Below are positions 1 to 46,130 of a stretch of 64,000 nucleotides of DNA, in pieces. How positions within the stretch are numbered: position 1 is the stretch's first letter; the number at the start of each line of letters is the position of its first letter. A model generated the notes under the pieces. That model saw only the letters and a program-made list of their open reading frames with translations. It did not search any database and was not told the DNA's origin. This stretch comes from Candidatus Campbellbacteria bacterium. Its GTDB lineage: Bacteria > Patescibacteriota > Minisyncoccia > Phycocordibacterales > EsbW-18. Where the stretch lies: the NCBI GenBank assembly GCA_045863475.1, contig BTUR01000002.1:410-64409 (forward strand), given 5' to 3'. Both the position numbers and the translations under genes were made by a program.

Positions 1-1427
1 AAAAGTTAGATGGTGTTGGCATATTAGCGTGGCATCCTGATCGCCTCGCGCGTAATTCGATTGACGGTGGACGAGTTATTTACGCCGTAGACACTCGAAA
101 AGTTGTGTCTTTGCGCTTTCCGACATTTTGGTTTGAACCAACCCCGCAAGGGCTCTTTATGCTGCAAGTGGCGTTTGGTCAATCCAAATATTATTCGGAT
201 AACTTATCGGACAATATCAAGCGTGGTGTCCGCCAAAAACTGCGTCGTGGAGAATGGTTGAACTTAGCTCCCTTTGGCTATCAGAATAACCCCCGTATTA
301 GAAATATCGAACCTCATCCAACAAATGCTCGCGTAGTGAAGTTGGCTTTTGAAGAATACGCCAAAGGGTCGCACACTTTTATTTCGCTCGCACAATTTTT
401 GGCGGACTTGGGCGTGGTGACTCGTAACCAAACGCCACTTGCCAAAGTTTCCATCAAACGACTTTTGACACACAGAGCATATCTCGGCTTCGTCAAACAT
501 GGTGATGAATGGTTTGATGGAAACTTTGAGCCAATTGTTACTCCCGCATTGTTTGAAGCCGTGCAGAAAGTATTGCAAACAAAAGAAAGGCCGCGCAAAA
601 GGAAAATCAAGCACGATTTTCCTTTCACTGGACTTTTTCGATGCGCCGAGTGTGGGAGTATGATTTCCGCGCAATGGGCGACTGGAAAATCTGGTGGTCG
701 CTATCGGTATTATCGGTGCTCGAAAAAGCGCGGCCACTGTTCGCAAGCGTATTTGCAAGAAAGCGAACTTACTCGGCAAATCTGTGCACGGCTTCAAACA
801 ATCTCGCTTTGCGATCGCTATACCAACTGGATGTTGGACAAAGTGAGACTATGGGAGCGTGAGGAAATTGGAGCGTCGCAAAGCGAGGTTCAAAATCTTT
901 CGAGTGGAATCAAAGCGAACGAGGAGCGCATGGAAAAACTGCTCTCGGCGTATCTTGATGGCGATGTACCGAAAGATGTTTATCTCAAGCGAAAAGATAC
1001 GCTCATGCGCTCTCTCGCCGCTTTGAAGGAACAAATGAAAGATTTTGAACGCGGGAGAAACAATTGGGTCGAACCCTTGCGGGAATGGATTTTAGATACG
1101 AAACAAGCCAATTTTTTGTCCTCCTCCTCTGATTTGTACCAAATCAAGTCGTTCGTCCAAAAAATCGGAACGAACCCCTTGGTTCGTGACAAATCCGCCC
1201 ATTTCGCCCTGCCCATTCCGTCCCAATTCGTCGCGAAGCGACGCCACCTTTTGCCCAGCCCCGCGCCAAAGGCGCGTGGCGCATCTCGGCTTTCAGAACA
1301 GGAAGTTTCTTTCTGCGGTGAGGGTGGGATTCGAACCCACGGTCCAGTTTCCCGGACACCACATTTCGAGTGTGGCGCTTTCGACCACTCAGCCACCTCA
1401 CCAAAATCAAAACTCAAGATGAGGTAG
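1..1427 (+). CDS. Large serine recombinase (integrase/resolvase family), 5'-partial. The resolvase catalytic domain runs off the window start. The open frame reads antisense through tRNA-Ser with no earlier stop.
   Basis: Translation from nt 3 gives KLDGVGILAWHPDRLARNS.. (DRLxR resolvase motif), then a recombinase domain, a zinc-ribbon (CAECGS..YYRC..C) and a coiled-coil tail. Codon usage is lower-GC (Q=CAA, K=AAA) than the core genes. Confidence 0.8.
   Translation, partial: KLDGVGILAWHPDRLARNSIDGGRVIYAVDTRKVVSLRFPTFWFEPTPQGLFMLQVAFGQSKYYSDNLSDNIKRGVRQKLRRGEWLNLAPFGYQNNPRIRNIEPHPTNARVVKLAFEEYAKGSHTFISLAQFLADLGVVTRNQTPLAKVSIKRLLTHRAYLGFVKHGDEWFDGNFEPIVTPALFEAVQKVLQTKERPRKRKIKHDFPFTGLFRCAECGSMISAQWATGKSGGRYRYYRCSKKRGHCSQAYLQESELTRQICARLQTISLCDRYTNWMLDKVRLWEREEIGASQSEVQNLSSGIKANEERMEKLLSAYLDGDVPKDVYLKRKDTLMRSLAALKEQMKDFERGRNNWVEPLREWILDTKQANFLSSSSDLYQIKSFVQKIGTNPLVRDKSAHFALPIPSQFVAKRRHLLPSPAPKARGASRLSEQEVSFCGEGGIRTHGPVSRTPHFECGAFDHSATSPKSKLKMR
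1316..1402 (-). tRNA. tRNA-Ser(CGA), long variable arm
   Basis: The reverse complement GGTGAGGTGGCTGAGTGGTCGAAAGCGCCACACTCGAAATGTGG...GTGGGTTCGAATCCCACCCTCACCG folds as a cloverleaf with a CGA anticodon and a long extra arm. Confidence 0.85.
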
Positions 1428-1601
1428 CTGAGTGTTCGACAAGTCGTCCACCTCGTCCGTTTTCAACGGACTCGGATGAATGCTGTCTAAACAGCCTTCA
1501 TCCACTCAGCCACCTCACCAGGTGTTGATTTGCCGCCTCATTTTGCCATATTTCCTTAAAAATGCTATATTTTTTCGCGTCGGTAGAAGGGAAAAGAATA
1601 C

Positions 1602-1676
1602 GGCCTCATCGTCTAGCCTGGTCTAGGACGTCACCCTTTCACGGTGAAAACTCGGGTTCGAATCCCGATGAGGTCA
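1602..1676 (+). tRNA. tRNA-Glu(UUC)
   Basis: GGCCTCATCGTCTAGCCTGGTCTAGGACGTCACCCTTTCACGGTGAAAACTCGGGTTCGAATCCCGATGAGGTCA has the acceptor, D, anticodon (loop CTTTCAC) and T arms. Confidence 0.9.
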
Positions 1677-1677
1677 C

Positions 1678-2640
1678 ATGAAATTTGAAAGACCCCCCAG
1701 CAATCCTGCGGAGACCCAGTACGGCTCATATCTCGAGAAAAACGAAACGCTCATTGAACGGGCGCACGAGAAAGCGGCAGCCCTCATCGCTCGTGAAGCT
1801 GTCGACCCGAAAGGGTTTGATGACGTGTACTCGTCCGATGAGATTGAAAATGACTTGAAGCGCGTTGCAGAGCGCACGGCGACGTTTGAGAACAAAGACC
1901 GTTCGTCGCTTATGGATAAGGCGGCGCTTGCAGCGGAGGCGCTCATGTACGAGCAGGTTGGCAAGAGCGACTGGCTGTCCGGAGAAGGGGTGAAAGTATA
2001 TCCGGAGAAAACAACTGACTCCGATGATATTTTCAATAAGACCGACTTGGTGCTGACGTTTGAAACAGGGGAAGACGAGGAACCGCTTGCGGTGACGGTT
2101 GATGTGACCATCGGTATGCGCACGCTCACCGAGAAAATTCACTCAATTAAACAGGAAATTGATACGCAGTCACTGACGACGGTTAAGTATCACGAAACAC
2201 CGTCAGGAGAACATGTACCGCTGGAAAAAGCACCGCGGGTTATTCTTGGGATAGAGCCGGAGACGCTCATGGAGCTCCTGCCGTTATGGCTGACAGGTGA
2301 TGCACAAGGCAGGGAACGACTCAAGACACACCCGGTACAACTGGATGTGGCACTGGCGATTGAGATGCAGCTGAAGGCCTATGAAGAGTATGCGCGTACT
2401 ACAGGAAAGGAAAACACGGCCGATCGTTTTAAAGCTGCCTCGGGTATTATTACAGCGATTTGTCGGGGAAAAGTACGAAGCAGCACTGAACCTGTGAAAA
2501 GAAAAGAAGGCCGCCTGTTGCGTGACTTGCGTACGGCACTTGATTCCCAACTCTTGAACCCTTCATCAAAAAAGGTTCTGAAAGAAAGTTCTCTTGAGGA
2601 GCGTAAACGTTTGGAGATTATCAAACGTTTGCGGCGCTAG
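1678..2640 (+). CDS. Hypothetical protein (320 aa), acidic, no recognisable domain
   Basis: Long ORF with native-like codon usage that begins 2 nt after tRNA-Glu. Function unknown. Confidence 0.5.
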   Translation: MKFERPPSNPAETQYGSYLEKNETLIERAHEKAAALIAREAVDPKGFDDVYSSDEIENDLKRVAERTATFENKDRSSLMDKAALAAEALMYEQVGKSDWLSGEGVKVYPEKTTDSDDIFNKTDLVLTFETGEDEEPLAVTVDVTIGMRTLTEKIHSIKQEIDTQSLTTVKYHETPSGEHVPLEKAPRVILGIEPETLMELLPLWLTGDAQGRERLKTHPVQLDVALAIEMQLKAYEEYARTTGKENTADRFKAASGIITAICRGKVRSSTEPVKRKEGRLLRDLRTALDSQLLNPSSKKVLKESSLEERKRLEIIKRLRR

Positions 2641-3804: not shown

Positions 3805-5235
3805 TTACTCCTCCTCCCATGTGATGGTGGTGTATTGGTCAGTTACCAACGGGAATGACGGTGGTGGTCCGTACAAGAGGCTTCCGTCGTAGTTGATGTT
3901 TCTTGTCTGGTATCCGGTATTGTCGGTGTAGGCAAAACCGTATCGCTGACTGGTCGCAATCATACCCCACAGTGTTATGGTTTGCCGTGTGTGGTACGGC
4001 GAGCATCGCTGTGAGTTGCCGCTCGGTCCGCGGTAGTAGTATCGTCCGACACGGCCATTCTGTGCGATGAGTGCGCCATCAATTCTCAAATCGTCTTCAC
4101 TTACCAATCCGACGGTCACGTTGCCTTGCGCAATGAGACCGAGCACATCAGTGCCATCATAATTTGTGTAGAGGAGATCATTGTTTACGACTATGTTTTT
4201 TCGGAACGGCGGATTGTCAGGAAGAAACGCGGCAACGATGGTGAGACGGCCGCCGTCTATCTGCCCATCAACAAAGATGTCGTCTTCCAAAAAGATGATG
4301 CCATTTTCCGGGAACGGATATGTGTCAATCAAATGCTGGTTTCGTATGCTCCATGTCCCCCAACCGGACTGATCTGCACTGTTCGTGCATCCCGACGGTG
4401 CGTTGGTAAAGCCCGTGACGCGATAGAGATCAAACGTGTCGTCGGTCTTCAACACGATGTGGTACCCCAATGCGCCCGCACTCGGCCGGTAGAAACCTGC
4501 AGTTTGCGCGTCGGTTTTCATTTGTGCGAGATCGGTGGTGATACCGAAGAAGTCCACGGCCGGAACAGGGAACTGGCGGCCGATTTGGAACACATCGGTT
4601 CGGTTTGGTACCGCCGACGGCGGAAGCGGGTCAACAGGAGCGACGTGGGTGTGCACACCAAACTCGTTTCCTCCCGTATGGTCAGGATCGTTGTAGGTGG
4701 CAACCGCGCTTGAAATCACGTTGTGCGCGATACCATCAAAGCGCACGCCTTGGTTGGAGTGAACGGGTCCGAACACCTCTGTACCTTCTCCGAACCGCAT
4801 AACGTCGTTTGCGGCAACGGCATATTTTGCGATGGACGGTTTGGCAAACTGCACTGCGATTTCACGATCAAGCGTTTCGTTGTCGGCCACGTTTCCTTTT
4901 GATGAGACCTGAACGAGTGTGGAACCAAGCGGTGGCGGTGTAATGTCGAGGGTGAATTGACCGACAACATTGTCGTCTTTGTCGCGGAAGTCATGCGTGT
5001 ACGGGCCTGAGGTGCCGGTTCCGTCTTGGAAGTCCTCAGGCGCGTGCGCGAGGTGCCATCGGTAGTAATCAATACCCGCCTCCGCAATCTGAAGTGTCTT
5101 CTCACGGTCCACGGCTTGTCGTCCCGCTTTCACATTGAGGAGTGCCCACGACGCGGACGCGTTCAGGAGATATACGGCGACTGAGCCGAAAATGATTACC
5201 GGTGCCAATATGAATCCTGCGGTGCGCGTGCTCAT
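3805..5235 (-). CDS. Pilus-associated protein (PilX/minor-pilin-like), N-terminal TM anchor. Last gene of the pilin-like operon.
   Basis: N-terminal hydrophobic helix and a Gly/Thr/Asp-rich extracellular body. Its start overlaps the stop of the upstream pseudopilin gene by 4 nt. Confidence 0.5.
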   Translation of the reverse strand: MSTRTAGFILAPVIIFGSVAVYLLNASASWALLNVKAGRQAVDREKTLQIAEAGIDYYRWHLAHAPEDFQDGTGTSGPYTHDFRDKDDNVVGQFTLDITPPPLGSTLVQVSSKGNVADNETLDREIAVQFAKPSIAKYAVAANDVMRFGEGTEVFGPVHSNQGVRFDGIAHNVISSAVATYNDPDHTGGNEFGVHTHVAPVDPLPPSAVPNRTDVFQIGRQFPVPAVDFFGITTDLAQMKTDAQTAGFYRPSAGALGYHIVLKTDDTFDLYRVTGFTNAPSGCTNSADQSGWGTWSIRNQHLIDTYPFPENGIIFLEDDIFVDGQIDGGRLTIVAAFLPDNPPFRKNIVVNNDLLYTNYDGTDVLGLIAQGNVTVGLVSEDDLRIDGALIAQNGRVGRYYYRGPSGNSQRCSPYHTRQTITLWGMIATSQRYGFAYTDNTGYQTRNINYDGSLLYGPPPSFPLVTDQYTTITWEEE

Positions 5236-5855
5236 AGGTTGTCTTTGAGGTTTCTCATTGAAACTTGCGTCGTCAGGGTGATTGCCCCCGGCGGCTCCTG
5301 GGCGTCTTTGTCGATGACTATTGTTATTTTTGCCAACCGTACGGTGGATATGTCCACGGGGTCGGAAAGCGGGTCCGTTGTGCCGTCATAGCTGTCGTCG
5401 TAGTAGGCGAAGACGGACGTCGTGCCGTTGGCAACGTCGTGAATGAATTCAGTCACGACTTCGTCGCCAGGGTTGTAGGTCAGTGGTGATCCGGTCGGTT
5501 TTGTGATGCCTTTTTTCAGTATTGTACCGTCGAGGAAGTATCGCACATGCTCTTTGAGTTGGTCGTCGTCCACGTTGCGGTAGAAGGCAATTGATGATGA
5601 GGAAGTTTCTGACAGGGCGTATGCACCGAGACTGGACGGGGAAGCGGAACGAATCTCCGCACTCATCATTTTAAGTCCTCGACGCGCCTCATTCTGTGCC
5701 GTCAGGCTTTCCGAGATGACTCGGTTTATTGAGAAGACATCTTTCTGGAACGCATAGAGGACAAGTCCGAGCACAATGAGCAGTGCAATACCGAAGAGCA
5801 TTTCAACGACAGTGAACCCGAAACGGAAACGATTTTTATTGCGGTGTGCGTTCAT
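5232..5855 (-). CDS. Prepilin-type N-terminal cleavage/methylation domain protein (pseudopilin/minor pilin)
   Basis: N-terminus MNAHRNKNRFRFGFTVVEMLFGIALLIV matches the class III signal (G|FTxxE + hydrophobic helix). Confidence 0.7.
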   Translation of the reverse strand: MNAHRNKNRFRFGFTVVEMLFGIALLIVLGLVLYAFQKDVFSINRVISESLTAQNEARRGLKMMSAEIRSASPSSLGAYALSETSSSSIAFYRNVDDDQLKEHVRYFLDGTILKKGITKPTGSPLTYNPGDEVVTEFIHDVANGTTSVFAYYDDSYDGTTDPLSDPVDISTVRLAKITIVIDKDAQEPPGAITLTTQVSMRNLKDNL

Positions 5856-5858
5856 GGT

Positions 5859-7661
5859 TTACGGTGATAAGGTGATTTCTCGCTGCTGCCACGATTCGTC
5901 CATCGAGACGGTATCGGTGGATTGCTGGTAACCGGATTTGGAGACCGTCAGCGTGTACGTACCTGCACCAAGACCGGTGAAGAGTGCCTGGCCCGGCGGT
6001 ACACACGACGACGTGAAAGTGAATGAGACGTCGGAGATTGTCGGTGTCCACGTTGTACTTGCGGTTTGCAGGTACGCTTTGTAGCGCAGATATCGTGAAC
6101 CGTCATGCAGTGCGTTGATGTTTTGGTCGGCCGCGGTGTAGTAGGAAGCGGATGTGCCGTCCGGTCCCACAAAATTCCATGCGAGCTTGTCGTTGTTTGT
6201 GGCGATTTGAAAACGGACACTGTCTGCACCCGTCGGCGGCGGCTGATCTTGCGGTTGCCAAAGAATTTGATGGAAATTTGCCGATGATGAACCGACGTCA
6301 AACGTTGAGGAAATAAGCCAGCCGGATGTCTGGTATTCATCAAGAATTTGTCTCAAGTGAAATTCGCCGGCAGGGTCGTTTGTTCGGATGTCTCCGTCGG
6401 AGTCGAAATATTCAGTTGTGTTGACGTAGTCTTCCTGTCCCGATCCTCCTGACCAGTCGGTCTGGCGTATAAAACCTTGTCCGGTGGTCAGTGTTTCGTC
6501 GTAGCCGGTTTTCTCGAGCCGGACGGTTGCGTCAGTAAGCGGAAGCTGTGTTGACGCGTCTTTGACGGTTACCAGCAGTGTTCGCGGGGTTTTTGGCGTG
6601 ACGATGAACTTCAGGTCTTGTGTCGAGTCAGGATTAAGTGATAACGGCAAAAGTGGAATGGTTCCCGCGAGGTCGTAGACGCCGTCGGTGAGGTCTACGT
6701 CGTATGTGTCCCACTCAAGCCCGGACACGTTTCGGTCTCCCGCGGCATTGGTTGAGAATGAAGCATCGTACTTCAGAATCTCAGGGTCCGTACCGATGAG
6801 TTTGGAGCCGAACAGGGAGAACCCGACGGAGGGAACAGGTGTGCAGGTATCCGTCATGCTCGAGATTGAAAGTGAGCTCGTGCGGTCAATGGAGAAGCTG
6901 ATTTGTGTGAGCTGTTGGAGGGCCACGGTTGCGTGCGGTTTAACCGGGTTGGGGTTGTCTTCATCGCCTGAAGGATACGTCATGTCCGTTGAGTAGCCGG
7001 ACTTCGAGACGGTTACCTCATATGCTTCGACGCCGGGCGGTGCATCGACGATTTGGAGCAGTCCGTTGTTATTCGTTGAGTCGTCAATAACGATGGAGGA
7101 CGTCCCTTGATTGTTTTCTACGTGCACATCGGCATCGACTATCGGTTGTCCCGACGCATCAAAAACCTGAACAAAGAGCGCGCCGTTCGTTGAAGCGGTT
7201 TCAAGCGCTCGCGGTCCGACGTGCGTGGTGAAGGAAAGTGGTGTGAAATTTCTGCACGACGCACAGCTGATTTCCAATTCAATGAGTTTGTAGTCGCTCG
7301 GAGAAAGGTCCGTAGGACTGCCGTCTATTGTGCCGTCAAACGGGTCGTCAATGTTGCGTATGGTGGTTTCCACGGAGAACTCATTGCCATCGCGCGTCAG
7401 CGTCTGTATGTGGGGAATCTTGCCGTCCGGAATACCATCGGGTATACCGACATCCGTGTACGGCAGGTTGCGGATGATTTCAAATTGTTCATTGGCAAGC
7501 GCCGCAGCTGCGACTTTGAGACGAGACGCTTCAATCGCGCGCATAGTTACGATATACCCCTGGTAGACACTGACCGCGATGACGAGAAAAACGAATATCC
7601 CGACGAGGGATTCTACGAGCGTAAATCCGTGCTGTGATTTAGAGGCGTGCATGACAAGCAA
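5859..7661 (-). CDS. Large prepilin-type N-terminal domain protein (600 aa) with beta-rich carboxypeptidase-regulatory-like repeats
   Basis: HGFTLVESLVGIFVFLVIA prepilin signature near the N-terminus. First gene of a three-gene co-directional cluster. Confidence 0.7.
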   Translation of the reverse strand: MLVMHASKSQHGFTLVESLVGIFVFLVIAVSVYQGYIVTMRAIEASRLKVAAAALANEQFEIIRNLPYTDVGIPDGIPDGKIPHIQTLTRDGNEFSVETTIRNIDDPFDGTIDGSPTDLSPSDYKLIELEISCASCRNFTPLSFTTHVGPRALETASTNGALFVQVFDASGQPIVDADVHVENNQGTSSIVIDDSTNNNGLLQIVDAPPGVEAYEVTVSKSGYSTDMTYPSGDEDNPNPVKPHATVALQQLTQISFSIDRTSSLSISSMTDTCTPVPSVGFSLFGSKLIGTDPEILKYDASFSTNAAGDRNVSGLEWDTYDVDLTDGVYDLAGTIPLLPLSLNPDSTQDLKFIVTPKTPRTLLVTVKDASTQLPLTDATVRLEKTGYDETLTTGQGFIRQTDWSGGSGQEDYVNTTEYFDSDGDIRTNDPAGEFHLRQILDEYQTSGWLISSTFDVGSSSANFHQILWQPQDQPPPTGADSVRFQIATNNDKLAWNFVGPDGTSASYYTAADQNINALHDGSRYLRYKAYLQTASTTWTPTISDVSFTFTSSCVPPGQALFTGLGAGTYTLTVSKSGYQQSTDTVSMDESWQQREITLSP

Positions 7662-7718
7662 TATGAATACTCTTTATGATAGCAAAAGAAAAAACCTTTT
7701 TGCTATAAAACAGAGGGT

Positions 7719-8639
7719 TTAGTGAGCTCGCGCTTTCAGGTGGAGATACAGGTCTTCAAGTGCGCGCACGGCGTCGCCGGCGGCGATGTTGTTTTGATGG
7801 TAGCGGACGTTCGTGCAGTCACCCGCGGCCCAAATCCCCGGAATGTTTGTTGCGTTGGTCCACGGGTCGATTTCGATGCGTCCGTATTCGTCCAGCGCAA
7901 GAAGTTCTTTCGCAAAATCCGTGTTCGGCAACATGCCGATTTCCACAAAGATGCCGGTGACGGGAAGTGTGTGCTCACCACTCTGGTCTTCGTAGGTGAG
8001 GCCGGAGACAAACGCGTCTCCCGTAACCCCTGTGATGCGCGCGCCGGTGATGACCTTCATGTTGGGGTGGGCGGATACTTTTTGTACCGTTATGGCGTCT
8101 GCTTTGAACGTGTCGCTTCGGTTGAGCAAGGTGACTGATGTGCAGTAGGCGAGGAGTTGTGCGGCGCTTTCAAATCCGGCGTTGCCGCCGCCGATGACCG
8201 CAACGTCTTGGCCCGCGAAGACGGGACCGTCACATGATGCGCAGTACGAGATACCTTTGTTCTCAAACTGTTCCGCGCCGGGAACGTCGAGTTTTTTGCG
8301 TGACGAACCGCTTGTTATGAGAATGCTCCGCGTTGTGTAGGATGCCTTATCGGTTGCAACGGAGAATTCGTCATCTTTCTTTGTGATGCCGGTAACCCGC
8401 TCTCCCGTGTTAATAGTGATGAACGAGTCTGCGTACGCGCGGATGTGGGCCTCAAATGCTTTTGCAAGTTCGTTGCCGGGAATAGACGGTGTGCCGATCC
8501 AGTTTTGTATGTCGGGGGAGACGACGCTCTGTCCGCCGAAATCAGGTGTAATGAGCAGTGTTTTGAGTTGTTTGCGCGCCGCGTAGACCGCTGCTGCGGT
8601 TCCTCCGGGTCCTGCGCCGATGATGATGAGGTCGTACAT
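7719..8639 (-). CDS. trxB: Thioredoxin-disulfide reductase
   Basis: GAGPGG FAD motif, CASC redox-active site, GGGNAG NADPH motif. 306 aa. Confidence 0.9.
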   Translation of the reverse strand: MYDLIIIGAGPGGTAAAVYAARKQLKTLLITPDFGGQSVVSPDIQNWIGTPSIPGNELAKAFEAHIRAYADSFITINTGERVTGITKKDDEFSVATDKASYTTRSILITSGSSRKKLDVPGAEQFENKGISYCASCDGPVFAGQDVAVIGGGNAGFESAAQLLAYCTSVTLLNRSDTFKADAITVQKVSAHPNMKVITGARITGVTGDAFVSGLTYEDQSGEHTLPVTGIFVEIGMLPNTDFAKELLALDEYGRIEIDPWTNATNIPGIWAAGDCTNVRYHQNNIAAGDAVRALEDLYLHLKARAH

Positions 8640-45939: not shown

Positions 45940-46017
45940 TGGTGACCTCATCGGGATTTGAACCCGAGTTTACGCCGTGAGAGGGCGTCGTCCTGGACCA
46001 GGCTAGACGATGAGGCC
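45940..46017 (-). tRNA. tRNA-Glu(CUC) with encoded CCA
   Basis: The reverse complement GGCCTCATCGTCTAGCCTGGTCCAGGACGACGCCCTCTCACGGCGTAAACTCGGGTTCAAATCCCGATGAGGTCACCA. A hairpin + T-run terminator follows at 45912-45938. Confidence 0.9.
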
Positions 46018-46066
46018 ATGTACCACGGCACCATGCGTCTGTGTAGTCCACGTTGTTCTCACGGTT

Positions 46067-46130
46067 CCGTGAGAGGGATTGAGGGCACTGGTGTGCCGTC
46101 AATCCGTAGACCAGGCTAGACGATGAGGCC
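46067..46130 (-). pseudogene. tRNA-Glu 5' fragment (24 nt identical to the tRNA-Glu(UUC) 5' end) plus an anticodon-loop-like remnant. Not a complete tRNA.
   Basis: The minus strand reads GGCCTCATCGTCTAGCCTGGTCTA..CCCTCTCACGG but lacks the 3' acceptor and T arm. Confidence 0.55.

What the first reader, a model, noticed from the sequence alone, without database searches (positions are those of the whole stretch)
1..1520. Partial large serine recombinase abutting tRNA-Ser, with an 18-nt duplicate of the tRNA 5' end 100 nt away
The window opens inside a large serine recombinase gene (resolvase DRLxR motif, zinc-ribbon, coiled coil). Its reading frame runs antisense across tRNA-Ser(CGA). The 18-nt segment CACTCAGCCACCTCACCA (1386-1403, the tRNA 5' end on the minus strand) recurs at 1503-1520. 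The DNA between the copies does not fold into a tRNA. Recombinase, tRNA and a partial tRNA repeat together are the classic footprint of an integrative element boundary. The recombinase's lower-GC codon usage supports foreign origin, and the element body would lie upstream of the window.
Basis: partly seen in the sequence, partly recalled or inferred. Interest (0 to 1): 0.5.

Follow-up and report, generated by a model that had tools for sequence, protein, structure and literature searches.

The report
Serine-integrase element end at tRNA-Ser
The window opens in the right-hand end of a small mobile element whose serine integrase inserts it at the last bases of a tRNA gene, as do hundreds of related elements in ultra-small (CPR) bacteria, while the 18-base repeat belongs to a separate structured insert in front of the tRNA.

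Summary
There is a partial large serine recombinase (LSR) whose frame runs antisense through tRNA-Ser(CGA), and an exact 18-nt copy of the tRNA 5' end 117 nt away.

The LSR does mark a mobile-element boundary, but the junction is at the tRNA 3' end (window 1315-1321). In at least 66 of 82 related loci the LSR gene ends at the same nucleotide of a tRNA gene (Ser, Glu, Arg, Leu, Gly, Val, Ala or Lys).

Twenty-one relatives have both ends defined. They are 3.3-8.2 kb and share only a 4-nt core (base +1, discriminator, positions 72 and 71) at attL, attR and an internal attP-like site.

Two features are unusual. The crossover lies inside the LSR reading frame. The last ~134 nt of the gene are repeated, inverted and near-identical, just upstream of its start in 66 of 69 loci.

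The 18-nt repeat is not an att site. It is the outer arm of a covarying, structured ~117-nt leader module found 5' of six tRNA-Ser genes. Analogous modules occur at other tRNAs, including a second in this window; some carry GIY-YIG genes.

No description was found in the literature searched. Serine integrases were reported as rare at tRNA genes.

The parts
1..1319 (+). Partial large serine recombinase gene (frame starting at base 3). It corresponds to about residues 70-509 of full-length ~510-590-aa homologues, so the first ~69 codons, including the catalytic serine, lie outside the window.
   Evidence: Pfam Resolvase, Recombinase and Zn_ribbon_recom. 95% identity to P0138 residues 70-514. Conserved protein and DNA homology ends at ...EVSFCG / ...TTTCTGCGGTG.
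1188..1321 (+). 'a' arm: the last ~134 nt of the LSR gene, forming the element-side arm of the right attachment site (attR). In relatives an inverted copy, mostly 97-100% identical, lies at window-equivalent -362..-229. That position is outside this window.
   Evidence: The inverted repeat is found in 66 of 69 evaluable loci, always with its inner boundary at window-equivalent 1188.
1315..1321 (.). Crossover region GCGGTGA. The minimal core is GCGG (1315-1318): the base after the tRNA, the discriminator, and acceptor positions 72 and 71. Bases 1319-1321 are additionally shared with the a|b site of close relatives.
   Evidence: Three-way comparison of X|b, a|b and a|tRNA in 21 elements. Logan contigs of this same organism begin exactly at 1292 = 1322 minus 30. 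That fits a k=31 assembly branch point after 1321; the k value is my own knowledge, not a tool result.
1320..1427 (+). Non-conserved C-terminal tail of the LSR frame, read antisense through the tRNA (EGGIRTHGPV...KMR, stop at 1425-1427).
   Evidence: ORF list. Tails differ between loci beyond SFCG.
1316..1402 (-). Intact tRNA-Ser(CGA), the host target. Its 3' end abuts the element.
   Evidence: ARAGORN; Rfam RF00005 at 64.6 bits over the full model.
1403..1520 (-). Structured leader module 5' of tRNA-Ser. The distal copy of tRNA nt 1-17/18 (1503-1520) pairs with an 'anti' segment (1417-1434). Three hairpins lie inside this helix (1438-1448, 1455-1471, 1474-1503). A T-rich spacer (1403-1416) follows.
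   Evidence: Repeat statistics and folding. Covariance model R1 hits 1403-1519 (-) at 74.8 bits, plus five other tRNA-Ser leaders. Covariation counts. Absent from five syntenic relatives.
1602..1677 (+). tRNA-Glu(TTC), a host neighbour, preceded by a promoter-like site at 1543-1571. It is context only and not part of either element.
45940..46130 (-). Second instance of the leader-module class in this window: tRNA-Glu(CTC) at 45940-46017, with a 22-nt copy of its 5' end at 46109-46130 and a structured 113-nt leader.

Best explanation
Window 1-1321 is the right end (attR side) of an integrated element of a large family that moves among Patescibacteria/CPR genomes. The window's organism is a Candidatus Campbellbacteria MAG.

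Proposed mechanism. The element's large serine recombinase recombines an element site, a|b (attP), with the extreme 3' end of a tRNA gene (attB). The 'a' arm is the last ~134 nt of the recombinase gene itself. The crossover falls inside a 4-nt core made of the base after the tRNA, the discriminator, and acceptor positions 72 and 71 (GCGG for tRNA-Ser). The tRNA therefore stays intact. The recombinase frame runs on into tRNA antisense sequence. The other end of the element, X|b, carries the same core.

By analogy with 21 delimited relatives, the unseen body upstream should contain, in this order: an inverted, near-identical copy of 'a' fused to a 'b' arm (a second, intact attP-like site about 25 nt before the LSR start codon); a divergent XRE-type regulator; 1.5-6 kb of variable cargo; a conserved terminator-like hairpin; and the outer 'b' arm.

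What is shown: the domain architecture, the invariant junction position, the shared cores, the inverted repeats, the size range, and the horizontal-transfer pattern.

What is inferred: conservative serine-recombinase chemistry at the core, a circular intermediate, and the role of the internal a|b copy.

The 18-nt repeat is a separate matter. It is the distal arm of a ~117-nt leader module lying 5' of the tRNA. In this module a copy of tRNA nt 1-17 pairs with a complementary segment around internal hairpins. G.U pairs indicate selection on the tRNA-sense RNA. The module is probably an ORF-less relative of the GIY-YIG cassettes that occupy the same position at other tRNAs.
For: LSR architecture:
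- Pfam domains.
- The nucleophile motif YARKST is read directly in a relative (L012).

Family size:
- More than 4,444 proteins at E <= 1e-10.
- At least 571 loci in GTDB species genomes.

Junction:
- 66 of 82 loci have a minus-strand tRNA whose 3' end sits at the same offset. The targets are Ser 32, Glu 19, Arg 7, Leu 3, Gly 2, and Val, Ala and Lys 1 each.
- Homology to tRNA-less loci stops at window ~1320.

Both ends and cores:
- 21 elements of 3.26-8.2 kb share the cores GCGG, GTGC or GTGA according to target.
- LSR clusters at 78% identity track the target class.

Inverted repeats:
- The 'a' repeat is present in 66 of 69 loci.
- A b-type arm follows the left copy of 'a' in 48 loci, nearly all of those with enough flanking sequence.

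Horizontal transfer:
- The LSR is 89-94% identical to relatives, whereas host proteins of the window are 45-66% identical to the same loci.
- GC content is 2 SD low.

Not a fixed neighbour of this tRNA:
- The Campbellbacteria relative L104 has tRNA-Ser(CGA) with no LSR within 21 kb.

Second 'a' copy in the window's own organism:
- Logan contigs start at 1292.

Leader module. GIY-YIG cassettes.
Against: - The window lacks the left part of the element. Its presence here rests on analogy plus the Logan contig break.
- No orthologous empty site and no excised circle were recovered. Mobility is therefore inferred from distribution, not seen directly.
- An intact internal a|b copy is not required by a simple attP x attB model and remains unexplained.
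- The tRNA sits at the LSR 3' end in 66 loci and at the 5' copy in only 2-3 loci (L063, L097). That bias is unexpected if the two a|b sites were equivalent.
- Some LSRs of the family sit beside prophage-like genes or b-type flanks rather than tRNAs (L003, L004, L019, L040, L092).
- For the leader module, the link to GIY-YIG cassettes is geometric only. No promoter or processing data exist.
Confidence: 0.75

Rival explanations
1. One reading: an integrative element whose attachment-site duplication is the 18-nt tRNA 5'-end repeat. The recombinase, the tRNA and the partial tRNA copy would then form one footprint.
For: The repeat is exact and non-random. It lies next to a recombinase-tRNA pair.
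Against: - The element junction maps to the tRNA 3' end.
- The repeat is on the other side of the tRNA.
- Five relatives with the same LSR-tRNA-Ser(CGA)-tRNA-Glu arrangement lack it.
- The same kind of repeat occurs at tRNAs with no LSR nearby, including window 45940-46130.
- It belongs to a covarying structured module.
Confidence: 0.03
2. The LSR is mainly a resident DNA invertase. The ~134-nt inverted repeats make the recombinase gene an invertible segment (a switch), and adjacency to tRNAs is secondary.
For: - Near-perfect inverted repeats bracket the gene in 66 of 69 loci.
- Both orientations relative to tRNA and cargo exist: the standard form, and the inverted form in L063 and L097.
- Half of the assemblies break within 600 nt upstream of the gene.
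- JGI names some members 'DNA invertase Pin-like'.
Against: - The architecture is that of an integrase-type LSR, not a small invertase.
- The same element ends abut at least 17 different tRNA species and carry different cargo.
- A 4-nt core recurs at a distal end 3-8 kb away.
- LSR identity far exceeds host identity.
- Orientation is strongly biased: 66 loci against 2-3.

Inversion could still be an additional activity.
Confidence: 0.1
3. The LSR is simply the integrase of a temperate CPR phage, and the window holds a prophage end.
For: L092-L094 and L004 have LexA-like repressor, ParB-methylase and terminase-like genes next to the LSR. The nearest solved or characterised relatives are phage integrases (SprA, A118) at about 22-25% identity.
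Against: - The 21 delimited elements are 3.3-8.2 kb and carry no structural phage genes.
- No relative was found in 2.9 million IMG/VR viral contigs.
- Cargo consists of metabolic or unknown genes plus an XRE regulator.
Confidence: 0.08
4. The 99-nt interval with the 18-nt repeat is a decayed tandem duplicate of tRNA-Ser (a pseudogene) with no function of its own.
For: The distal copy matches the tRNA through the D-loop (27 nt at 89%). One internal hairpin resembles the tRNA-Ser variable arm, and in four relatives the long hairpin loop contains CUGCU, as in a Ser(GCU) anticodon loop (by eye).
Against: - Six members from different genomes keep the outer and inner helices through 12 compensatory pair changes. 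Pairing is 86%, against 41-47% in slid controls.
- The 'anti' segment tracks each local tRNA's acceptor sequence.
- There is no T-arm, and no tRNA call.
- Mirror-image modules exist at tRNA 3' ends.
Confidence: 0.12

Closest known systems
Large serine integrases of phages and integrative elements (SprA of SPbeta, A118/LI integrase, Bxb1, phiC31)
   Same: Same three-domain architecture: Resolvase, Recombinase and zinc ribbon. Short identity core at the att sites and no long direct repeats. The solved relatives 9dxh (SprA/YokA) and 4kis (A118) are detectable by sequence.
   Different: - Only about 22-25% identity to them.
- The target is the extreme 3' end of tRNA genes.
- The crossover lies inside the integrase's own reading frame.
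- A second, inverted attP-like copy sits just upstream of the gene.
- The elements are only 3-8 kb.
tRNA-targeting genomic islands of the Islander/TIGER type, and tycheposons of Prochlorococcus
   Same: Small cargo-carrying integrative elements sit at tRNA genes in streamlined genomes. The integrase is next to the tRNA, and arrays form at one site (tycheposon preprint 10.1101/2020.12.28.424599).
   Different: - Those use tyrosine integrases almost exclusively: 910 of 937 tycheposons. The rate of t(m)RNA-gene use is 44.5% for tyrosine integrases against 4.9% for serine integrases, and serine-integrase use of a tRNA gene was 'not reported previously' (PMC7192596).
- They regenerate a displaced tRNA fragment as a direct repeat. 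Here the tRNA is not split and only 4 nt are shared.
SCC elements with Ccr recombinases
   Same: Large serine recombinases insert cassettes at the 3' end of one conserved gene. Composite or tandem arrays occur, and so do recombinase-less cassettes. CcrB is the best NCBIfam match.
   Different: The score is far below the family cut-off (78 bits against 900). The target is different, and SCC elements have no inverted repeats around ccr.
Hin/Gin/Pin invertible segments
   Same: A recombinase gene bracketed by inverted repeats (as hin lies inside the H segment; my own knowledge). Two orientation isomers are seen here.
   Different: Those are small serine recombinases with 26-bp sites and an enhancer. 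Here the enzyme is an integrase-type LSR with 131-134-nt (up to 399-nt) repeats, variable cargo and tRNA targets.
Free-standing GIY-YIG homing endonuclease cassettes near tRNA genes (for example T4 SegB)
   Same: Small GIY-YIG genes sit immediately 5' of tRNA genes in these genomes, in the position the window's leader module occupies. The SegB-tRNA association is described in PMC2330249 (abstract only).
   Different: The window's module has no ORF. The exact 15-22-nt duplication of the tRNA end, with a complementary 'anti' segment, is not a described feature of such cassettes as far as I found.

Membership tests
Large serine recombinase (serine integrase) | N-terminal resolvase catalytic domain with the serine nucleophile | tested here: inconclusive
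   The window holds only profile positions 67-145 of PF00239, including the DRLAR motif. The nucleophile lies in the ~69 missing codons. Homologues at 95% identity have the full domain (P0138 residues 8-154). L012 reads ...YARKSTEDD.
Large serine recombinase (serine integrase) | Recombinase domain (PF07508) followed by a zinc-ribbon domain (PF13408) | tested here: met
   PF07508 at E = 1.5e-13 and PF13408 at E = 9.2e-11 in the window protein.
Large serine recombinase (serine integrase) | Coiled-coil motif embedded in the zinc-ribbon domain | not tested
   A helical, charged stretch is visible in the translation of about 850-1080. No coiled-coil predictor or structure model was run.
Large serine recombinase (serine integrase) | att sites that share only a short central core, with the crossover at a 2-nt stagger | tested here: met
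   The minimal shared core is 4 nt in 21 relatives. The 2-nt stagger itself cannot be tested with these tools.
tRNA-integrating genomic island (Islander type) | Tyrosine integrase | tested here: not met
   The enzyme is a serine recombinase.
tRNA-integrating genomic island (Islander type) | Element flanked by the regenerated tRNA and a displaced tRNA fragment as a direct repeat | tested here: not met
   The distal ends (X|b) carry only the 4-10-nt core. The 18-nt repeat is a 5'-end copy on the wrong side of the tRNA and is absent in syntenic relatives.
Integrative mobile element (general) | Variable presence: an empty orthologous site in relatives | tested here: inconclusive
   No orthologous empty site was found. 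A related Campbellbacteria genome (L104) has tRNA-Ser(CGA) without the LSR, but in a rearranged context. The element occurs at different tRNAs in different genomes.
SCC Ccr recombinases / XisF / IS607 transposase (NCBIfam equivalogs) | Score above the curated family cut-off | tested here: not met
   CcrB 78 bits against a cut-off of 900; XisF 63 against 375; IS607 25 against 110.
Hin/Gin-type DNA invertase | Small serine recombinase with a C-terminal HTH and no recombinase or zinc-ribbon domains | tested here: not met
   The domain architecture is of the LSR type.
tRNA (for the interval 1403-1520) | Cloverleaf recognised by ARAGORN or Rfam RF00005 | tested here: not met
   No call by ARAGORN. 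No RF00005 match even at E <= 1.
GIY-YIG homing cassette (for the interval 1403-1520) | Encodes a GIY-YIG endonuclease | tested here: not met
   The 99-nt interval has no ORF. The long versions at L006 and L035 do encode PF01541 proteins.

The most novel reading that the evidence does not exclude
The family is more than an integrase-plus-cargo element. It would be a CPR-wide, tRNA-anchored modular gene-capture system run by a serine integrase.

- LSR modules are bounded by inverted 'a' arms. Cargo modules are bounded by inverted 'b' arms. The two kinds alternate in arrays, and every junction carries the same short core.
- The b arm carries a T-loop-like CGAAC motif 6 bp further from the core than the tRNA arm does. 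This matches the attP-versus-attB half-site offset known for serine integrases.
- The internal a|b copy would serve as a second recombination site or as an operator.

Separately, the tRNA-end 'decoy helix' modules (5' and 3' types, some with GIY-YIG genes) would be a second, undescribed class of tRNA-targeting mobile RNA/DNA elements.
Probability: 0.25. Interest if true: 0.8.

Novelty: new variant of a known kind. Interest (0 to 1): 0.6.

Why it matters
Serine integrases are prized genome-engineering tools, and they have been regarded as almost never using tRNA genes. In PMC7192596 the rate of tRNA-gene use is 4.9%, against 44.5% for tyrosine integrases, and such use was 'not reported previously'.

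Here a whole clade is dedicated to the 3' ends of tRNA genes. It comprises thousands of proteins and at least 571 loci in species-representative genomes. Its sub-clades track the target tRNA.

Because the sequences are so similar across the clade, it forms a natural series for studying how integrase specificity is re-targeted.

These elements may also be a main route of gene flow in CPR bacteria, whose mobile elements are poorly known.

The self-overlapping attP and its inverted duplicate pose a mechanistic question that can be tested directly.

The leader modules suggest an unrecognised layer of tRNA-gene parasitism or regulation.

Tried and rejected
1. Extending the window upstream. Exact look-up of the neighbouring 320-aa protein returned only two 1.4-kb Logan contigs. 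No cluster member is identical to the window's LSR. The NCBI contig of MAG AMXMBFR44 was identified only by name.

2. Empty-site searches. The exact tRNA-Ser pattern has 0 hits in JGI metagenomes. The tRNA-Leu pattern of array L088 has 3 hits: two occupied, and one contig that ends exactly at the junction. Orthologue neighbourhoods L102 and L103 lack the tRNA pair, and L104 is rearranged.

3. Viral origin. There is no relative in IMG/VR.

4. Quasi-palindromic a|tRNA site. I first thought the 'a' arm mirrored the tRNA arm (12 of 22 positions in the Ser clade). Across 67 junctions the symmetry score at that centre is 7.9 of 30, which is chance level, so I dropped the idea.

5. Circular form. Contig L096 (3,923 nt) has a 399-nt, 100%-identical inverted repeat on both sides of the LSR. 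It is collinear with a ring, but about 200 nt are missing at the putative closure, so circularity is not shown.

6. Rfam gave only sub-threshold chance hits in 1371-1453.

7. No sigma-70-like promoter for tRNA-Ser was found in or beyond the leader.

8. Literature searches for CPR serine-recombinase/tRNA elements and for GIY-YIG/tRNA duplications found no description.
Full report
**1. The observation**

Window 3-1427 (+) is one open reading frame. It matches Pfam Resolvase (profile positions 67-145 only), Recombinase and Zn_ribbon_recom. The gene is therefore a large serine recombinase (LSR) whose first ~69 codons lie outside the window. Its best full-length relative, P0138, aligns from residue 70 at 95% identity.

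ARAGORN and Rfam place tRNA-Ser(CGA) at 1315/1316-1402 on the minus strand. The LSR frame reads through it and stops at 1425-1427.

The 18-mer CACTCAGCCACCTCACCA is exact at 1386-1403 and 1503-1520. An inverted 3-mismatch copy lies at 1417-1434. Chance expectation is 0.05 matches. The LSR has 47.8% GC against 52.8% +/- 2.4 for the rest of the window.

**2. Where the element really ends**

The LSR belongs to a very large family. More than 4,444 proteins match at E <= 1e-10, up to 95% identical, and almost all are labelled Patescibacteria/CPR. At least 571 loci occur in GTDB species genomes.

In loci L003 and L004, which have no tRNA at this position, DNA homology to the window stops at ...GGAAGTTTCTTTCTGCGGT(G/C). 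This corresponds to window ~1319-1320, the 3' end of tRNA-Ser.

Across 82 loci, 66 have a minus-strand tRNA gene whose 3' end sits at the same offset from the LSR C-terminus. The targets are Ser (all four isoacceptors) 32, Glu 19, Arg 7, Leu 3, Gly 2, and Val, Ala and Lys 1 each. Several further loci show tRNA fragments or tRNAs cut by a contig end.

LSR clusters at 78% identity track the target class. The window's cluster uses tRNA-Ser, plus one tRNA-Arg with a Ser-like acceptor end.

**3. Both ends, and the core**

In relatives with enough upstream sequence the layout is:

X | b - terminator-like block - cargo - XRE regulator - rc(b) rc(a) - LSR - a | tRNA

- 'a' is the last ~134 nt of the LSR gene (window 1188-1321).
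- 'b' is a ~205-260-nt arm.
- X is the flanking host sequence at the far end.

Comparing the three junctions X|b, a|b and a|tRNA in 21 elements gives a minimal shared core. It is GCGG for Ser, GTGC for Leu/Gly/Arg and GTGA for Glu. In every case these are the base after the tRNA, the discriminator, and acceptor positions 72 and 71. Element sizes are 3.26-8.2 kb.

The tRNA is not split, and only its 3' trailer is replaced. In the window the core GCGG is at 1315-1318. Identity with the a|b site of close relatives runs through 1321 (GCGGTGA).

Independently, two Logan contigs from the window's own organism start exactly at 1292. This is 1322 minus 30, the position where a k=31 assembly would branch if a second copy of 'a' with a different neighbour exists in that sample. 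The k value is from my own knowledge.

**4. Unusual anatomy**

The crossover lies inside the LSR reading frame. Protein homology ends at ...EVSFCG. The tail is then encoded by whatever follows: tRNA antisense in the window, or a b arm in the long forms P0002 and P0006.

In 66 of 69 evaluable loci the last 131-134 nt of the gene recur inverted. The copy ends about 25 nt before the start codon and is mostly 97-100% identical within a locus, although 'a' diverges below 70% between loci. In 48 loci, nearly all of those with enough flanking sequence, this copy is followed outward by a b-type arm with the motif ..TAACCnnnGCKCGAAC... The integrated element therefore keeps an intact, inverted attP-like a|b site.

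The CGAAC motif of b lies 6 nt further from the core than the T-loop CGAAC of the tRNA arm, in all clades (read directly). This resembles the known outward shift of the zinc-ribbon motif in attP versus attB half-sites of serine integrases. That comparison is my own knowledge and an inference here. A supposed mirror symmetry between 'a' and the tRNA arm did not hold family-wide.

Other forms exist:

- Two loci show the inverted isomer, tRNA(+)|rc(a)-LSR-a|b-HTH (L063, L097).
- Contig L096 has a 399-nt perfect inverted repeat on both sides of the LSR and no tRNA.
- JGI loci L087-L090 are arrays of modules, each bounded by inverted repeats. The array in L088 ends at the 3' end of tRNA-Leu, beside an LSR-less mini-module.
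- Half of all loci (40 of 82) have a contig end within 600 nt upstream of the gene. These repeats are the likely cause, and the same may explain why the window starts inside the gene.

**5. Mobility**

The LSR of the window is 89-94% identical to those of genomes whose host proteins are only 45-66% identical to the window's. Near-identical LSR-'a' ends abut different tRNAs. Several genomes hold two or more copies at different tRNAs, for example CP060229.1 (loci L051 and L055).

A related Campbellbacteria genome (L104) has tRNA-Ser(CGA) without any LSR within 21 kb.

Cargo varies. It includes a kinase-like APH, histidine phosphatase, a GTP-cyclohydrolase-II fusion, DinB, NUDIX, methyltransferases and secreted proteins. 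An XRE regulator is always present.

There are no relatives in IMG/VR. The nearest phage or plasmid LSRs are 22-25% identical. NCBIfam equivalogs (CcrB, XisF, IS607) score far below their cut-offs.

I did not recover an orthologous empty site or a circle. Excision and integration therefore remain inferred.

**6. The 18-nt repeat**

Five relatives with the same LSR-tRNA-Ser(CGA)-tRNA-Glu arrangement have a 55-85-nt spacer between the two tRNAs. The window has 199 nt, and the extra 117 nt are the 99-nt interval plus one repeat copy.

Exact copies of the first 15-22 nt of a tRNA occur upstream of the gene at 12 of 163 tRNAs scanned. They lie either 104-119 nt or 308-347 nt upstream. One is a second case in this window, tRNA-Glu(CTC), with its copy at 46109-46130. 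They are not enriched at LSR-adjacent tRNAs (5 of about 65 against 7 of about 98). The long versions encode 78-87-aa GIY-YIG proteins.

A covariance model built from the short tRNA-Ser versions finds six members, all directly 5' of a tRNA-Ser gene. In these, the outer helix (5' copy paired with an 'anti' segment) and a long inner hairpin are kept:

| Measure | Observed | Slid controls |
|---|---|---|
| Cells forming a standard pair | 86% | 41-47% |
| Pairs with a change on both sides | 12 | 1-4 |

The caveat is that there are only six sequences and the alignment was fitted to the model.

The window's three DNA 'mismatches' in the outer helix include G.U pairs on the tRNA-sense strand, which also folds more stably. 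This points to an RNA-level structure in the tRNA leader.

Mirror-image modules also exist. Their layout is tRNA, terminator, inverted copy of the tRNA 3' end, hairpins, then a direct copy of the last 16-22 nt.

The repeat is therefore real and biological, but it belongs to a separate class of tRNA-end modules and is not the recombinase's att site. How these modules arise is not resolved. An ORF-less derivative of GIY-YIG cassettes is my best guess.

**7. Comparison and novelty**

Functionally the element resembles tRNA-targeting islands and tycheposons, and SCC cassettes. Mechanistically it is a serine-integrase element.

It is not a member of the Islander-type class, because it lacks a tyrosine integrase and a displaced tRNA fragment. 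It is not a member of the Ccr, XisF or IS607 families.

The literature held here describes serine integrases as rare at tRNA genes: 14 of 297 elements, with such use 'not reported previously' (PMC7192596). Tycheposons are 97% tyrosine-recombinase elements. Searches for CPR serine-recombinase/tRNA elements found nothing.

I rate the finding as a new variant of a known kind. The window itself holds only its right end.

Noticed in passing
window 45940-46130 (-): A second leader module. A 22-nt exact copy of the 5' end of tRNA-Glu(CTC) lies 113 nt upstream of the gene, enclosing a strongly folding interval (-53 kcal/mol).
   Followed up: partly
L006 1886-2193, 4077-4423, 9807-10152; L035 18424-18761; L098 2285-3061: 78-106-aa GIY-YIG (PF01541) genes sit immediately 5' of tRNA genes. 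In L006 and L035 they lie between a 15-16-nt copy of the tRNA 5' end and the full tRNA (Ser, Cys, Glu, Val).
   Followed up: partly
L104 9838-9984; L014 6354-6530 and 10988-11140; L006, L043, L055, L060: Mirror-image 3' modules. The layout is tRNA, terminator hairpin, inverted copy of the tRNA 3' end, further hairpins, then a direct copy of the last 16-22 nt, 130-240 nt downstream.
   Followed up: partly
L087 1-13228; L088 1-9700; L089; L090: Arrays of four to six modules, each bounded by its own perfect inverted repeats (68-181 nt). L087 has two different LSR genes. L088 ends at tRNA-Leu(TAA) beside an LSR-less 'rc(z)-z' mini-module, and a 127-nt direct repeat lies at both ends of the array.
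   Followed up: partly
L104 8958-10954 versus window 1315-2640: In a related Campbellbacteria genome the tRNA-Glu(TTC)/tRNA-Ser(CGA) pair is inverted relative to the orthologous 320-aa gene. That gene follows the 3' end of tRNA-Ser there and the 3' end of tRNA-Glu in the window. tRNA 3' ends may therefore be rearrangement breakpoints.
   Followed up: no
L012 about 7807-7968 and equivalent positions in L004, L007, L009, L021, L026, L029, L035, L040; L096 1-50: A conserved ~100-150-nt block lies between the cargo and the outer b arm. It begins with a 12-bp GC-rich hairpin (CCCCGCCGTTTT...AAAACGGCGGGG) and is probably the cargo operon terminator.
   Followed up: partly
L092 8523-15620; L004 12727-17466: Some family members have prophage-like genes to the right of the LSR instead of a tRNA. 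These include a LexA-like repressor, ParB-methyltransferase and terminase.
   Followed up: no
82 LSR loci: Forty of 82 assemblies have a contig end within 600 nt upstream of the LSR gene, inside or just beyond the a/b repeats. This is a systematic assembly break that hides these elements in MAGs.
   Followed up: partly
L085 7780-7900: The internal a|b copy of this element lacks 23 nt of the core-proximal part of the b arm. The site may be inactivated.
   Followed up: no
L026 (JBAXFJ010000001.1) about 4700-8470: The element is flanked by a 191-nt, 100%-identical direct repeat that contains a truncated tRNA-like sequence. Extra LSR N-terminal fragments lie nearby, suggesting tandem or nested insertions.
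   Followed up: no
window 1678-2640: The 320-aa ORF that starts one base after tRNA-Glu is 100% identical to a protein of MAG Candidatus Campbellbacteria bacterium AMXMBFR44. This identifies the window's source organism.
   Followed up: yes
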